From Candidatus Margulisiibacteriota bacterium (GTDB lineage: Bacteria; Margulisbacteria; WOR-1; O2-12-FULL-45-9; XYB2-FULL-48-7): DNA of 64,000 nt. The stretch spans positions 365,042 through 429,041 of the forward strand of contig JALOPZ010000001.1 in the NCBI GenBank assembly GCA_025453605.1. Reading direction: 5' to 3'. Shown here piece by piece: positions 37,348-42,276 of the stretch (the stretch's first letter is position 1; each line of letters begins with the position of its first letter). The notes beneath the pieces were generated by a model. It ran no database searches, was not told the DNA's origin, and saw only the letters and a list, made by a program, of their open reading frames with translations. Made by a program: the position numbers and the translations under genes.

Positions 37348-39498
37348 CTAGCGTTGCTCCGCCGCCGGCAAGGTAAAGAAAAAGGTTGAACCCTTTCCTT
37401 CCCCCTCCGACTCCGCCCAGATCTTGCCGTCATGATGCCCAACGATCTCCTTGGCCAGCGCCAGACCGAGCCCGACGCCGCCGACTTTGCGGGTGTAGGT
37501 GTTCTCGACCTGATAGAACTTATTGAAGATCTTCTCCAGATTTTCTTTGGCCAGGCCGATACCGTTGTCCCTGACCGCGACCAGAATGAATTTATCCTGA
37601 TCAGTGGTGGTGATCGAAATCTTCAACTGTTCGCCGTCGCGCCGGAACTTGTAGGCGTTATCCAGCAGGAGCCGGAAGAGCGACGCGATCTTCTCCCGGT
37701 CGCCCATCACGCCGGGATTGCGGGCCTGGAGCGCCAGCTGCAGCTTGATATCCCCGGGGGCATCGGCCGCGGCCGCCTTGATCGTGTCGTGCAGGGAGAA
37801 CAATTCCCGCTTGACCTGCGCGCGGCCGCTTTCGAATTTGGCGAAATCGAACAGACTGTCGAGCAAGCTGAGCAGCCGTTCCGCGTTATTGCCGATCGCC
37901 GCGACCGCCTCTTTTTGCTTGTCGGTGACCGGACCCAGCAAGCCACCGTTGAGGAGCGGGACATATCCTTTGATCGGGATGACCGGGGTCCGCAGCTCAT
38001 GCGAGACCATCGAGATGAACTCGTCCTTGAGCCGGTCGAGCTCGGTCAGACGGCCGACCGCCGCCTTCTCTTTTTCGTAAACGCCGACATTCTCGATCGC
38101 CACTGCCAGCTGTTCGACAACCGCCGAGAGGAGCGCCTTTTTTTCCGCCAGTTCCCGGCCGGCAGCCAGCACGAGCGTGCCGGCGTCGGCCCCCTTGACC
38201 TTGAGCGGCAGGCGGAGCGCGTTCTGCCGGTCGGCCTCGCTCCCGCGCTGGCAGCGGACTTGACCGTCGGGAGACACCAGCGCGTAGTGCTGGACGCCGA
38301 GGATATCCATGGTCCGGCTGATCAACAGTTCCAGATCGAGACTGGAGCCGGCCGCCCTGGCCACCTCGAACAATATTTTCAGTTCGGCGGTCCGCTCGCG
38401 CACTTTGGCTTCGAGCTCCTGGCTCCAGTCCTGGCGGATCGCCGTGGAGCGGCCCAGTTGCGCGGCCATTTCGTTGAAATATTTGACGACGTCGCCGACC
38501 TCGTCGTTGCCGGCGTGGCGTAAACGGAAAGTAAAGTCGCCGCGACTGATCCGTCCGATGGCGTTGCTGATCTCGCGCAGCGGGTCAGCGATCGCCCGCG
38601 CCGCCAGTGTCGCCGCGAAGACGACCAGGATCCCGGTCAGCGCGATCAGAAAAAGAGTCTGCATCCGTACCTCGCCCAACCCGGCGGCCAGCGCCGGGTC
38701 GACCACCGCGCCGATCACTTCATTGAAGGAAAAGAAAAGGAGGAGCGAGGAGACGATCACCGGGACCAGGGCCAACAGCAAAAACAGGAGGAAGAGCTTT
38801 AGCCAGAAGGGAAAACGAGGACGCTCGGTCGCTTCTGCTCCCCCGGCCGGCGCGACCAACGGGAAATAAAGAACGGCCCCGAGCGGGATCAGCAGGTAGC
38901 CGAGCCGATACAGGAGAGCCTGCCAGGAAACAGCCAGGGTGCCGGTCTGCAGCAGTTCCAGGGCGGTAAACAGAAGGATTCCGAGCGCGGGGGTGCGCCC
39001 TTTTCCGGCCAGCGCGATCAGCGCGCCGCCGGCCAGCGGCAGGAGCAGCCCGACCAGATAGACCAGCTTCGCTCCCGGCGCGTCAGCCCACTGCGCTCCC
39101 CAGTAGGAGCTGGCGACTCCGACCTTCGTCCCCCAGGCGAGAAAAAGGTAGAAAGCGGCCGCTGCTCCGTGCAGCAGGGTGATCCGCCGGACCGCGGTCT
39201 TACCGGTCAGCAGGGTGGCGAATAGATAATATCCGGCGGTAACACAAGCGGCCGCGGCGCTTAGCTGGATCGGCCAGATCATGATCGCTCCGTCGCGTAA
39301 AGCGGCCGGATCGAACCAGGCGGCCAGGTTGCCGAGGCCGTCCAACCCCCACCGTAAGCCGACCAGGAGAACAAAATAGAAGTAGGCGGCGAATTCCTTC
39401 TGCCGGCCGGCCCGCCAGAAGGCGAGCAACGCGATCCCCAGGATCAGCGCGGAAATAGTTACATTATATAGGTACCCGGCTCGCAAGGCGCTGATCAT
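37348..39498 (-). CDS. Sensor histidine kinase (multi-TM sensor, HAMP, GAF, HisKA, HATPase_c), paralog 1
   Basis: About 8 N-terminal TM helices. H-box SHELRTP. N/G1/G2 boxes DNGIGL...GGVGLGLA. Confidence 0.85.
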   Translation of the reverse strand: MISALRAGYLYNVTISALILGIALLAFWRAGRQKEFAAYFYFVLLVGLRWGLDGLGNLAAWFDPAALRDGAIMIWPIQLSAAAACVTAGYYLFATLLTGKTAVRRITLLHGAAAAFYLFLAWGTKVGVASSYWGAQWADAPGAKLVYLVGLLLPLAGGALIALAGKGRTPALGILLFTALELLQTGTLAVSWQALLYRLGYLLIPLGAVLYFPLVAPAGGAEATERPRFPFWLKLFLLFLLLALVPVIVSSLLLFFSFNEVIGAVVDPALAAGLGEVRMQTLFLIALTGILVVFAATLAARAIADPLREISNAIGRISRGDFTFRLRHAGNDEVGDVVKYFNEMAAQLGRSTAIRQDWSQELEAKVRERTAELKILFEVARAAGSSLDLELLISRTMDILGVQHYALVSPDGQVRCQRGSEADRQNALRLPLKVKGADAGTLVLAAGRELAEKKALLSAVVEQLAVAIENVGVYEKEKAAVGRLTELDRLKDEFISMVSHELRTPVIPIKGYVPLLNGGLLGPVTDKQKEAVAAIGNNAERLLSLLDSLFDFAKFESGRAQVKRELFSLHDTIKAAAADAPGDIKLQLALQARNPGVMGDREKIASLFRLLLDNAYKFRRDGEQLKISITTTDQDKFILVAVRDNGIGLAKENLEKIFNKFYQVENTYTRKVGGVGLGLALAKEIVGHHDGKIWAESEGEGKGSTFFFTLPAAEQR

Positions 39499-41983: not shown

Positions 41984-42276
41984 CTTAACTGGCTAAGCTG
42001 TGTCCCTTTCTGGTCAAAAGCAAAGACCATCATCAGCTGCGGGTCCTTCAGGTTATCCATCGACGCGCCGACGATCCCGTAGGTGGCGATCCGGACGACG
42101 CCGGTCTTGTTCTGGTACATCACCTGGAAAAAGCCGGGTGAAAGGTTGCCGAACGAGACCGCCTGCCCCCACTCAGTCGGCGGTTTGGGGAAATTGTAGA
42201 CGTACGGGTCCGCCGCCCACGCCCCGCCGGCCAATATCCCGATCACCAAATAACCTAATAACCATTTTCTGATCAT
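41980..42276 (-). CDS. Small secreted protein (98 aa, hypothetical)
   Basis: Signal peptide ...ILAGGAWAADP. Coupled to the def stop and to the next ORF's start. Confidence 0.5.
   Translation of the reverse strand: MIRKWLLGYLVIGILAGGAWAADPYVYNFPKPPTEWGQAVSFGNLSPGFFQVMYQNKTGVVRIATYGIVGASMDNLKDPQLMMVFAFDQKGTQLSQLR

What the first reader, a model, noticed from the sequence alone, without database searches (positions are those of the whole stretch)
37348..42276. Signalling module inserted into the conserved priA-def-fmt operon
def and fmt are normally adjacent. Here a 4.9 kb block sits between them, with overlapping stop/start codons at every junction:
- def TGA / ATG of sp98;
- sp98 / sp81;
- sp81 / HK2;
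- HK2 / HK1.
HK1 ends 2 nt before the fmt ATG. The block encodes two signal-peptide mini-proteins (98 and 81 aa) and two paralogous 7-8 TM / HAMP / GAF / HisKA / HATPase kinases. No response regulator is present anywhere in the window.

This looks like a single transcript that couples an unknown peptide/kinase circuit to the translation-initiation genes. The cognate regulator, the signal and the reason for this placement are all open.
Basis: partly seen in the sequence, partly recalled or inferred. Interest (0 to 1): 0.6.

Follow-up and report, generated by a model that had tools for sequence, protein, structure and literature searches.

The report
Envelope sensor-kinase module inside def–fmt operon
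In a clade of uncultured Margulisbacteria, the normally adjacent def and fmt genes are split by a conserved, uncharacterised cassette (two small exported proteins plus a 9-helix membrane histidine kinase, duplicated only in this species). The same cassette sits elsewhere in a sister clade next to its response regulator, so it looks like a cell-envelope sensor and not a translation regulator.

Summary
On the minus strand the order is priA, def, sp98, sp81, HK2, HK1, fmt, nrdR, with 4-nt overlaps or 1–2-nt gaps at every junction. No receiver domain occurs in the 64 kb.

The block is not a recent insertion. The window is a Candidatus Margulisbacteria MAG. def–sp98–(W-x-P-P repeat protein)–HK–fmt recurs in about 25 loci (WOR-1, Saganbacteria and others). 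Thirteen of these reach fmt: 11 carry one kinase, only this species carries two, and one carries none.

HK2 is the ortholog (78.5% identical to the nearest relative's single kinase). HK1 is a divergent, catalytically intact paralog.

A sister clade carries the cassette away from def and fmt, as sp98a–WxPP–TPR/β-barrel protein–sp98b–HK–124-aa receiver-only regulator.

Both small ORFs are real genes (dN/dS 0.17 and 0.22). sp98 is a signal peptide plus a four-strand β-domain with 25 invariant residues. sp81 is a signal peptide plus 13-residue W-x-P-P-x-x-[FWY] repeats.

The kinases are 7TM (GPCR-like model) + 2TM + HAMP + truncated GAF remnant (no Pfam hit) + HisKA + HATPase.

Best reading: an envelope sensor with exported accessory proteins, riding a housekeeping operon. 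It is a new variant of a known kind, of moderate interest.

The parts
42273..42764 (-). def (peptide deformylase), the upstream boundary gene of the cassette
   Evidence: Pfam Pep_deformylase 9.8e-49. Its TGA overlaps the sp98 ATG.
41980..42276 (-). sp98: an exported 98-aa protein. It has a signal peptide with an AWA|A cleavage site and a ~70-aa beta domain. It founds a family found only in Margulisbacteria.
41738..41983 (-). sp81: an exported 81-aa Trp/Pro-repeat protein, signal peptide plus repeats
   Evidence: Homologs follow sp98 in both locus types. dN/dS 0.22. No Pfam, NCBIfam or PDB match.
41783..41881 (-). Three tandem 13-residue repeats W-x-P-P-x-x-[FWY] in sp81 (aa 35-67)
   Evidence: Regex and spacing analysis gives period 13 here and in 5 relatives, with 3-5 copies in four of them and 6 (the last two 6 residues apart) in L011.
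39495..41747 (-). HK2: the orthologous sensor histidine kinase, 750 aa (alternative start at 41735)
   Evidence: Pfam HAMP, HisKA and HATPase_c. 78.5% identical to the single kinase of the closest relative, L019. H, N, G1, F and G2 boxes intact.
41043..41699 (-). HK2 N-terminal seven-helix membrane bundle, with a beta-hairpin loop carrying the conserved YWGVQ motif
40827..40922 (-). HK2 conserved ~35-aa extracytoplasmic loop between TM8 and TM9 (FKEIIDLYIYKPLLWNLKTSREAF...)
   Evidence: Nearly invariant across both locus types. It is retained in the WOR-1 kinase that has lost the 7TM and GAF parts. HK1 has an 11-aa deletion here.
40218..40550 (-). HK2 GAF remnant, lacking ~55 aa relative to orthologs
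   Evidence: Alignment with L008, L011, L010 and L012 kinases, which do score as Pfam GAF. The window segment has no Pfam hit at E<=1.
39507..40190 (-). HK2 HisKA (DHp) plus HATPase_c catalytic core
   Evidence: Pfam 1.3e-19 and 4.5e-25. The closest NCBIfam cores are WalK, PnpS and PhoR, all far below cutoff.
37348..39498 (-). HK1: a species-specific divergent paralog of HK2 (716 aa), catalytically intact
   Evidence: 44% identical to HK2 over the full length. It sits on a long branch in the NJ tree and is absent from the 12 other def-fmt loci that reach fmt. It has the loop deletion and altered residues after the phospho-His.
36399..37346 (-). fmt (methionyl-tRNA formyltransferase), the downstream boundary gene
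   Evidence: Pfam Formyl_trans_N 2.5e-44 and Formyl_trans_C 2.3e-26. Its ATG lies 1 nt after the HK1 TAG.
42777..44807 (-). priA, the first gene of the conserved priA-def-[cassette]-fmt-nrdR run
   Evidence: Pfam PriA domains. The order is conserved in relatives.

Best explanation
The block is a lineage-specific cell-envelope two-component sensing cassette that has become a fixed passenger in the housekeeping priA-def-fmt operon of one Margulisbacteria clade.

**Shown.**
- sp98 and the W-x-P-P repeat protein sp81 carry signal peptides and are under purifying selection.
- In every locus with enough sequence downstream, sp98 is followed, in the same order, by this one kinase family; the two exceptions are L037 and the P0095 locus. 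Its membrane part was found only beside them.
- The kinase has almost no extracytoplasmic mass. It exposes a short hairpin loop and one ~35-residue, near-invariant loop before the HAMP domain.

**Inferred.**
- The two exported proteins act in the periplasm as co-sensors or modulators that dock on that loop, or on the 7TM bundle. This is the way WalH/WalI, LpqB, CpxP or LiaF modulate their kinases.
- The kinase autophosphorylates on the SHELRTP histidine.
- It passes the phosphate to a receiver-only regulator encoded elsewhere in this genome. Sister-clade loci encode such a 124-aa receiver directly after the kinase.
- Embedding between def and fmt, with translational coupling, gives constitutive, stoichiometric expression. 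It does not imply a functional link to formyl-methionine metabolism.
- HK1 is a recent extra copy. It lost the conserved loop motif and changed residues after the phospho-His, so it probably senses or signals differently from HK2.
For: - **Gene order and junctions:**
- **Domains and intact catalytic boxes:**
- **Origin:** the window is a Margulisbacteria MAG.
- **Conservation of the def-fmt arrangement:** def-sp98-WxPP-HK-fmt is conserved in WOR-1, Saganbacteria and other lineages. The metagenome scan adds about 20 more such loci. Of 13 loci that reach fmt, 11 have one kinase.
- **Sister arrangement:** sp98a-WxPP-TPR/OMP-sp98b-HK-RR124 occurs in 11 loci that extend past the kinase, and all 11 have the regulator.
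- **Intermediate:** L038 carries the TPR/OMP gene inside the def-fmt block.
- **Selection:** dN/dS is 0.17 (sp98) and 0.22 (sp81), like def at 0.20 and HK2 at 0.17.
- **Co-occurrence:** the kinase sensor domain was found only beside sp98/WxPP genes.
- **Conserved loop:** it is retained even in the truncated WOR-1 kinase.
- **Membrane model:** 7TM + 2TM.
- **Family affinities:** the catalytic core is closest to the envelope kinases WalK, MtrB and NblS, and the sister-clade receiver is closest to PhoB, MtrA, YycF and RpaB receivers.
Against: - No physical or expression data exist.
- The partner regulator in this genome was not identified. The nearest receiver-only proteins in related MAGs (45-52% identity) sit beside other kinases.
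- Binding of sp98 or sp81 to the kinase is inferred from synteny alone.
- L037 keeps sp98 and WxPP between def and fmt with no kinase, and the P0095 locus has sp98, WxPP, OMP and RR with no kinase. The small proteins may therefore have a role of their own.
- Persistence between def and fmt across a deep clade could still reflect selection for co-regulation with translation genes.
Confidence: 0.55

Rival explanations
1. Surface-assembly reading. sp98 and the W-x-P-P repeat protein are structural or exported envelope or surface components. In the sister clade they would be exported by the adjacent TPR/beta-barrel protein, with sp98a perhaps lipidated. The kinase merely monitors or regulates their production, or links the outer membrane to the inner membrane like the RcsF-IgaA-Rcs sensor.
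For: - Sister-clade loci always place a 385-398-aa protein between the small genes and the kinase. It has a signal peptide, a TPR region, and a C-terminal aromatic residue typical of an outer-membrane barrel. It gives a weak TPR_Slam hit of 24.5 bits.
- sp98a copies all carry a Cys at the end of the signal peptide. sp98b and def-fmt-type sp98 do not.
- Sister-clade WxPP proteins have long Pro/Ala/Thr-rich tails like periplasm-spanning linkers.
- L037 and the P0095 locus keep the small proteins without the kinase.
- sp98 is more conserved than the kinase.
Against: - The window and most def-fmt-type loci lack the barrel gene.
- Three def-fmt-type genomes gave only one sp98 locus each.
- The TPR_Slam score is below Pfam's cutoff, and no DUF560 barrel hit was found.
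- The residue before the Cys is F, L or I, which is not a canonical lipobox.
- The barrel fold was not modelled.
Confidence: 0.25
2. The kinase circuit is functionally coupled to translation initiation. It senses an envelope or peptide signal and tunes Def/Fmt activity or expression, possibly without a classical regulator. This would parallel PrkC/PrpC in the Bacillus def-fmt operon.
For: - The position between def and fmt, with overlapping or near-abutting codons, is kept across a deep clade, and no regulator is ever adjacent.
- The upstream order gmk-rpoZ-coaBC-priA-def matches Firmicutes.
Against: - The same cassette functions elsewhere in the sister clade with an ordinary receiver partner and no def, fmt or priA within 7-10 kb.
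- The kinases are standard HisKA/HATPase enzymes whose known substrates are receiver domains.
- fmt and def are of normal length with no extra domains.
Confidence: 0.12
3. Quorum-sensing reading. sp98 and sp81 are precursors of secreted signalling peptides detected by the kinases, an Agr/Com-like circuit.
For: Small signal-peptide ORFs lie directly upstream of membrane kinases with little extracellular domain.
Against: - sp98 is 51-90% identical across phylum-level diversity, has 25 invariant residues, and has a predicted folded beta domain. Pheromone precursors are short and diversify quickly (general knowledge).
- No processing or export gene (AgrB or ComA type) lies in the cassette.
- sp81 is a conserved-period repeat protein.
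Confidence: 0.04

Closest known systems
WalK with WalH/WalI (Firmicutes), and MtrB with the lipoprotein LpqB (Actinobacteria)
   Same: - A HisKA-type envelope kinase is co-encoded with extracytoplasmic accessory proteins that modulate it (PMC4801191, PMC7299342 and my own knowledge).
- The catalytic core of HK1 and HK2 scores best against the WalK, PnpS, PhoR and MtrB models.
   Different: - Scores are far below the family cutoffs (220 vs 725 bits for WalK).
- There is no PAS or Cache extracellular domain.
- The sensor is a 7TM+2TM membrane module.
- The accessory proteins (sp98, WxPP) are unrelated in sequence to WalH, WalI or LpqB.
- The regulator is not in the operon. In the sister clade it is receiver-only, not an OmpR-type DNA binder.
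[quoted passage not shown]
   Same: A transmembrane signalling kinase rides in the same housekeeping operon as def and fmt. The upstream synteny is shared (PMC8359813).
   Different: - PrkC is a Hanks-type Ser/Thr kinase with PASTA domains, and it lies downstream of fmt.
- Here a histidine kinase cassette sits between def and fmt.
- There is no homology between the two.
7TM-receptor histidine kinases (7TMR-DISM class, Anantharaman and Aravind 2003; my own knowledge)
   Different: - No match to Pfam 7TMR-DISM_7TM or any other membrane-sensor family, even at E<=1.
- No DISMED extracellular domain.
- Two extra TM helices with a conserved loop precede the HAMP domain.
Rcs envelope-stress system (RcsF lipoprotein, OMP, IgaA, RcsC/D/B)
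   Same: This is a conceptual parallel, and only for the sister-clade version. That version combines a small, possibly lipidated protein, an outer-membrane barrel, a Pro-rich linker protein, an inner-membrane kinase and a regulator.
   Different: - No sequence or fold relationship was shown.
- The window version lacks the barrel and the Cys-bearing copy.
- Lipidation and surface exposure are untested.
Cyanobacterial NblS/Hik33 with the small partner SipA
   Same: - A HAMP-containing kinase from the sister phylum, with a small beta-rich protein partner (my own knowledge).
- HK1 aligns to the NblS model from the HAMP domain to the C-terminus.
   Different: - The score is 136 bits against a cutoff of 1000.
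- NblS has 2 TM helices and a PAS domain, not 9 TM helices and a GAF remnant.
- SipA is cytoplasmic and binds the ATPase domain, whereas sp98 has a signal peptide.

Membership tests
HisKA-class two-component sensor histidine kinase | DHp domain with a phospho-acceptor His (H-box) | tested here: met
   Pfam HisKA 5.8e-14 (HK1) and 1.3e-19 (HK2). SHELRTP is present in both.
HisKA-class two-component sensor histidine kinase | HATPase_c domain with N, G1, F and G2 boxes | tested here: met
   Pfam HATPase_c about 1e-25 in both. NA.KF, DNGIG, FNKFYQ and GGVGLGLA are all present.
HisKA-class two-component sensor histidine kinase | Cognate receiver-domain partner (usually adjacent) | tested here: not met
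   No receiver in the 64-kb window or between def and fmt in any relative. One is present directly after the orthologous kinase in 11 of 11 sister-clade loci. The rest of this genome could not be searched.
   No Pfam GAF, GAF_2 or GAF_3 hit in HK1 or HK2 at E<=0.01, nor in the isolated segments at E<=1. Orthologs in L008, L011 and L012 score as GAF. The alignment shows a ~55-aa deletion in the window kinases.
WalK / VicK equivalog | NCBIfam HK_WalK score at or above the curated cutoff (725 bits) | tested here: not met
   219.6 bits (HK2) and 197.1 bits (HK1), covering the catalytic core only.
NblS/Hik33 equivalog | NCBIfam TCSHisKinNblS score at or above 1000 bits | tested here: not met
   136 bits for HK1. 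The model is not among the top 25 for HK2.
7TMR-DISM receptors | Match to the Pfam 7TMR-DISM_7TM profile | tested here: not met
   No Pfam family at E<=1 for HK2 residues 5-328.
7TMR-DISM receptors | Seven-helix membrane bundle as the input module | tested here: inconclusive
Slam-type outer-membrane translocon (sister-clade TPR/OMP gene only) | TPR_Slam N-terminal domain above cutoff, plus a DUF560 barrel | tested here: not met
   TPR_Slam 24.5 bits against a cutoff of 35.2. No DUF560 hit at E<=1. The gene is absent from the window.
Peptide-pheromone quorum-sensing kinase circuits (Agr/Com type) | Short, rapidly diversifying precursor peptide with a dedicated processing/export gene | tested here: not met
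   sp98 is 51-90% identical across the phylum and has 25 invariant residues. No processing or export gene lies in the cassette.
def-fmt operon | def and fmt co-oriented and co-transcribed | not testable with these tools
   They are co-oriented with abutting or overlapping genes, and no convincing internal terminator was found. Transcription itself needs RNA data.

The most novel reading that the evidence does not exclude
In this Margulisbacteria clade the cassette was captured between def and fmt because its output acts on protein synthesis itself. A 7TM envelope sensor would gate formyl-methionine initiation or deformylation, without a classical DNA-binding regulator. That would be a histidine-kinase counterpart of PrkC's control of translation factors in Firmicutes.
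Probability: 0.08. Interest if true: 0.75.

Novelty: new variant of a known kind. Interest (0 to 1): 0.45.

Why it matters
- It defines a phylum-restricted signalling cassette made of three uncharacterised families: the sp98 beta-domain protein, the 13-residue W-x-P-P repeat protein, and a 7TM+2TM sensor module. This comes from a lineage with no cultured representative, the sister group of Cyanobacteria.
- The two genomic contexts supply what the window lacks: a candidate partner type (a receiver-only regulator) and a candidate outer-membrane component.
- If the accessory-protein model holds, it is a new way of feeding envelope information to a kinase that exposes almost nothing to the periplasm.
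- It also shows how a non-housekeeping module can become locked inside one of the most conserved bacterial gene pairs.
- The practical consequence is modest until someone can test it. That would need heterologous reconstitution or metatranscriptomes.

Tried and rejected
- **Distant relatives of sp98.** I searched 1.84 billion representatives with a profile. Beyond 2-3 true family representatives, every hit was a giant SprB, CHU_C or SdrD_B repeat adhesin matched many times over profile positions ~33-65. I treat this as a generic 'L-x-P-G-x-Y-x-V' hairpin motif accumulated over repeats, not as homology.
- **Sensor domain of the kinase.** The word-indexed search was swamped by hydrophobic candidates and returned 4 hits. 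The two whose contigs I looked up were further cassette loci.
- **Orphan regulator.** I searched with the sister-clade RR124. Orthologs run from 56 to 100% identity. The next tier (45-52%) in Margulisbacteria and Saganbacteria MAGs are receiver-only proteins paired with other kinases. No partner could be assigned.
- **TPR/OMP homolog in the window.** None at E<=0.01.
- **Promoter and terminator scan.** Counts were no higher than in shuffled sequence, and nothing convincing lay inside the block.
- **RNA genes.** Rfam and tRNA scans of the window were empty.
- **Literature.** Nothing describes this cassette.
- **Plus-strand ORFs over the kinases** (for example 37432-38523). I rejected these as GC-rich shadow frames, because the minus-strand genes carry all the domain hits and all the conservation.
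Full report
**1. What is in the sequence**

On the minus strand the window carries these genes:
- priA, 42777-44807
- def, 42273-42764
- a 98-aa ORF (sp98), 41980-42276
- an 81-aa ORF (sp81), 41738-41983
- a 750-aa kinase (HK2), 39495-41747
- a 716-aa kinase (HK1), 37348-39498
- fmt, 36399-37346
- nrdR, 35871-36332
- two tandem nrdD genes

Pfam confirms def, fmt, priA and nrdR. It finds HAMP, HisKA and HATPase_c in both kinases.

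I read the junctions directly.
- def/sp98 and sp98/sp81 share ATGA.
- HK2/HK1 overlap by 4 nt.
- One base separates the HK1 TAG from the fmt ATG.
- HK2 either overlaps sp81 by 10 nt (ATG 41747) or starts 2 nt after it (ATG 41735, with a GGAGG 6 nt upstream). Relatives carry 6-8 residues before the conserved GFVPAP, so either start is plausible.

The window holds no receiver domain. tblastn with five receiver queries gave all E>0.7. Pfam on about 25 other ORFs found none.

A consensus scan finds no convincing terminator or promoter inside the block, and the counts are no higher than in shuffles.

The observation therefore stands, with two corrections. No GAF domain is detectable. The membrane part has nine helices, not 7-8.

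**2. Where it comes from, and how common it is**

The exact sp98 protein is encoded on a 790-kb JGI contig. It also occurs in GCA_025490975.1, annotated as a Candidatus Margulisbacteria MAG.

sp98 has 98 homolog clusters at 51-100% identity. All of them are Margulisbacteria, WOR-1 or Saganbacteria wherever a name is given.

I looked up contigs and scanned one genome per species and the JGI metagenomes. I then parsed every locus by tblastn. Two arrangements emerge.

*Type A: priA-def-sp98-WxPP-HK-fmt(-nrdR).*
- About 25 loci have def immediately upstream of sp98.
- Thirteen of these reach fmt. Eleven have exactly one kinase and the window has two.
- L037 has none (def-sp98-WxPP-fmt).
- L038 carries an extra TPR/beta-barrel gene before its single kinase.
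- None has a receiver.
- Named members are WOR-1 RIFCSPHIGHO2, Saganbacteria Zod_Metabat.1157, and Margulisiibacteriota MAG019.

*Type B: sp98a-WxPP(long)-TPR/OMP-sp98b-HK-RR.*
- All 11 loci that extend past the kinase encode a 122-128-aa receiver-only regulator directly after it.
- No def, fmt or priA lies within the 7-10 kb fetched.
- One named member is the single-cell genome AM-311-D05.

The block is thus an old, conserved feature of a clade. It is one of two homes of the same cassette.

**3. The kinases**

HK1 and HK2 are 44% identical end to end. Both keep the H, N, G1, F and G2 boxes.

In a neighbour-joining tree, HK2 pairs with the single kinase of the closest relative, L019. L019's sp98 is 86% identical to the window's, and its kinase is 78.5% identical to HK2. 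HK1 sits on a long branch inside type A and is at most 48% identical to anything. HK2 is therefore the ortholog, and HK1 is a species-specific extra copy.

The alignment and an AF2 model of HK2's first 324 residues (6 sequences, pTM 0.73) give this layout:
- seven membrane helices
- a beta-hairpin loop carrying the conserved YWGVQ motif
- a basic linker
- two long helices flanking a ~35-residue loop, FKEIIDLYIYKPLLWNLKTSREAF..., which is nearly invariant in both locus types
- HAMP, then a coiled coil
- a GAF-derived segment
- HisKA and HATPase

Three further details matter.
- Orthologs of 796-822 aa score as Pfam GAF. The window kinases, and L019's, lack about 55 residues of that domain.
- The WOR-1 kinase (469 aa) has lost both the 7TM bundle and the GAF part but keeps the loop, the HAMP domain and the catalytic core.
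- HK1 has an 11-residue deletion in the conserved loop. It also has altered residues just after the phospho-His: VIPIKGYVPLLNGG against the type A consensus VTSADGYVSLFLAG. In other kinases that region sets partner specificity (my own knowledge of Skerker/Laub-type specificity mapping). Applying this to HK1 is an inference.

NCBIfam ranks the catalytic cores nearest to WalK, PnpS, PhoR and MtrB, and for HK1 also NblS. All scores are far below the family cutoffs.

**4. The small proteins**

Against L019, dN/dS is 0.17 for sp98 and 0.22 for sp81. The values for def, HK2 and fmt are 0.20, 0.17 and 0.26. Both small ORFs are real genes.

*sp98.*
- It has a signal peptide with an AWA|A cleavage site and a ~70-residue core.
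- 25 columns are invariant across 61 sequences from both locus types.
- AF2 gives pLDDT 74 and four antiparallel strands.
- No specific fold or sequence relative exists in the PDB, Pfam or NCBIfam.
- A full profile search of 1.84 billion representatives adds only repeat adhesins, matched through a generic hairpin motif. At HMMER sensitivity the family is restricted to this phylum.

*sp81.*
- It has a signal peptide followed by three 13-residue repeats, W-x-P-P-x-x-[FWY].
- Five relatives in both locus types keep the same period, with 3-5 copies (6 in L011).
- Type B versions add long Pro/Ala/Thr-rich tails.

In type B, the first sp98 copy always carries a Cys at the end of its signal peptide (for example PSFC|S). 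This is not a canonical lipobox. The second copy, and all type A proteins, lack that Cys.

The type B 385-398-aa protein has a signal peptide and a TPR region. It ends in an aromatic residue, like an outer-membrane barrel. Its only suggestive hit is TPR_Slam, below the cutoff.

**5. How it most likely works**

*Shown:*
- the composition of the cassette
- the export signals
- purifying selection on both small genes
- strict co-occurrence of the kinase's membrane module with sp98/WxPP genes
- a kinase with hardly any periplasmic surface apart from one invariant loop
- a receiver-only partner wherever the cassette lies outside def-fmt

*Inferred:*
- sp98 and the repeat protein work in the periplasm as co-sensors or modulators of the kinase. 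This is the logic of WalH/WalI-WalK, LpqB-MtrB, CpxP-CpxA and LiaF-LiaS.
- The many invariant aromatic residues of sp98, paired with a Trp-Pro repeat partner, suggest that sp98 binds the repeats. This is pure speculation.
- The phosphate goes to a receiver-only protein encoded elsewhere in the genome.
- The def-fmt position gives constitutive, coupled expression.

I put this at 0.55.

The main rival (0.25) is that the small proteins are envelope or surface components in their own right. The barrel protein would export or anchor them, and the kinase would act as a monitor. The kinase-less loci (L037 and the P0095 locus) and the Cys-bearing copy favour this view. The absence of the barrel gene from most type A loci counts against it for the window.

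Direct coupling to translation initiation (0.12) is weakened by type B. It is not excluded, because the position is held across a deep clade. Bacillus offers a precedent for a membrane kinase in the def-fmt operon (PMC8359813).

A pheromone circuit (0.04) does not fit the conservation of sp98.

**6. Comparison with known systems, and novelty**

It works like an accessory-protein-modulated envelope kinase. It is not a member of the WalK, NblS, 7TMR-DISM or Slam families by their own profile thresholds.

I found no paper describing the cassette.

I rate it a new variant of a known kind. The transmitter module is standard. What is new is three uncharacterised, phylum-restricted input components in an unusual, conserved operon position.

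**7. Limits**

- Locus classification rests on tblastn at E<=1e-5, so divergent WxPP genes are missed. L028, L042 and L052, for example, show a gap of the right size where a WxPP gene would sit.
- Some metagenome loci are near-duplicates of each other.
- The partner regulator, the adjacency of def and fmt in type B genomes, transcription, and all protein interactions remain untested.

Noticed in passing
window 31638-35862 (-), with nrdR at 35871-36332: Two tandem class III (anaerobic) ribonucleotide reductase genes (nrdD) of 711 aa each, 70% identical, lie directly after nrdR and fmt. The nrdR-nrdD-nrdD run is also present in Saganbacteria (L008). No nrdG activase was noted next to them.
   Followed up: partly
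window 44856-45671 (+): A 271-aa ORF with no Pfam hit lies between priA and the Zn-ribbon/coaBC genes. Content here, or at the adjacent priA-def junction, differs between relatives. WOR-1 has DUF6788 plus NTP_transf_8. Saganbacteria has YkuD. L011 has RelA_SpoT plus a radical SAM gene. It looks like a variable spot in otherwise conserved synteny.
   Followed up: no
window 47821-56936 (+): An outer-membrane biogenesis cluster. Three conserved proteins without Pfam hits (about 363, 261 and 118 aa) precede TamB (50452-55263) and an Omp85/BamA gene (55167-56936). The trio plus TamB is syntenic in WOR-1 and Saganbacteria loci.
   Followed up: partly
window 15675-18635 (-): Carotenoid-type genes, a lycopene cyclase domain protein and a CrtI-like flavin amine oxidase, sit beside ispH/lytB. 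This is in a non-photosynthetic Margulisbacteria genome.
   Followed up: no
window 23346-31641 (+): A type IV pilus gene set: pilB-like T2SSE, pilC-like T2SSF, a PilM/PilN fusion and PilO. L011 has a similar pilus cluster directly downstream of fmt.
   Followed up: no
L037 3267-3530; L038 8161-8994; L006 10614-12023: Natural variants of the cassette that could guide experiments. L037 has def-sp98-WxPP-fmt with no kinase. L038 keeps the TPR/barrel gene inside the def-fmt block. The WOR-1 kinase (469 aa) has lost the 7TM bundle and the GAF part but keeps the conserved loop.
   Followed up: partly
L067/L068 6634-10054 (GCA_018823125.1): In a related Margulisbacteria MAG, a receiver-only regulator (127 aa, 48% identical to the sister-clade RR124) is flanked by two different histidine kinases next to a type IV pilus cluster. 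This could be a multi-kinase hub. Whether the def-fmt kinase also feeds it is unknown.
   Followed up: no
L072 (GCA_035541635.1, DATKMX010000300.1, 1.9 kb): A short contig carrying the WxPP-HK part of the cassette is binned in a 'Candidatus Sulfotelmatobacter' (Acidobacteria) MAG. This is most likely a binning error, not real occurrence outside Margulisbacteria.
   Followed up: no
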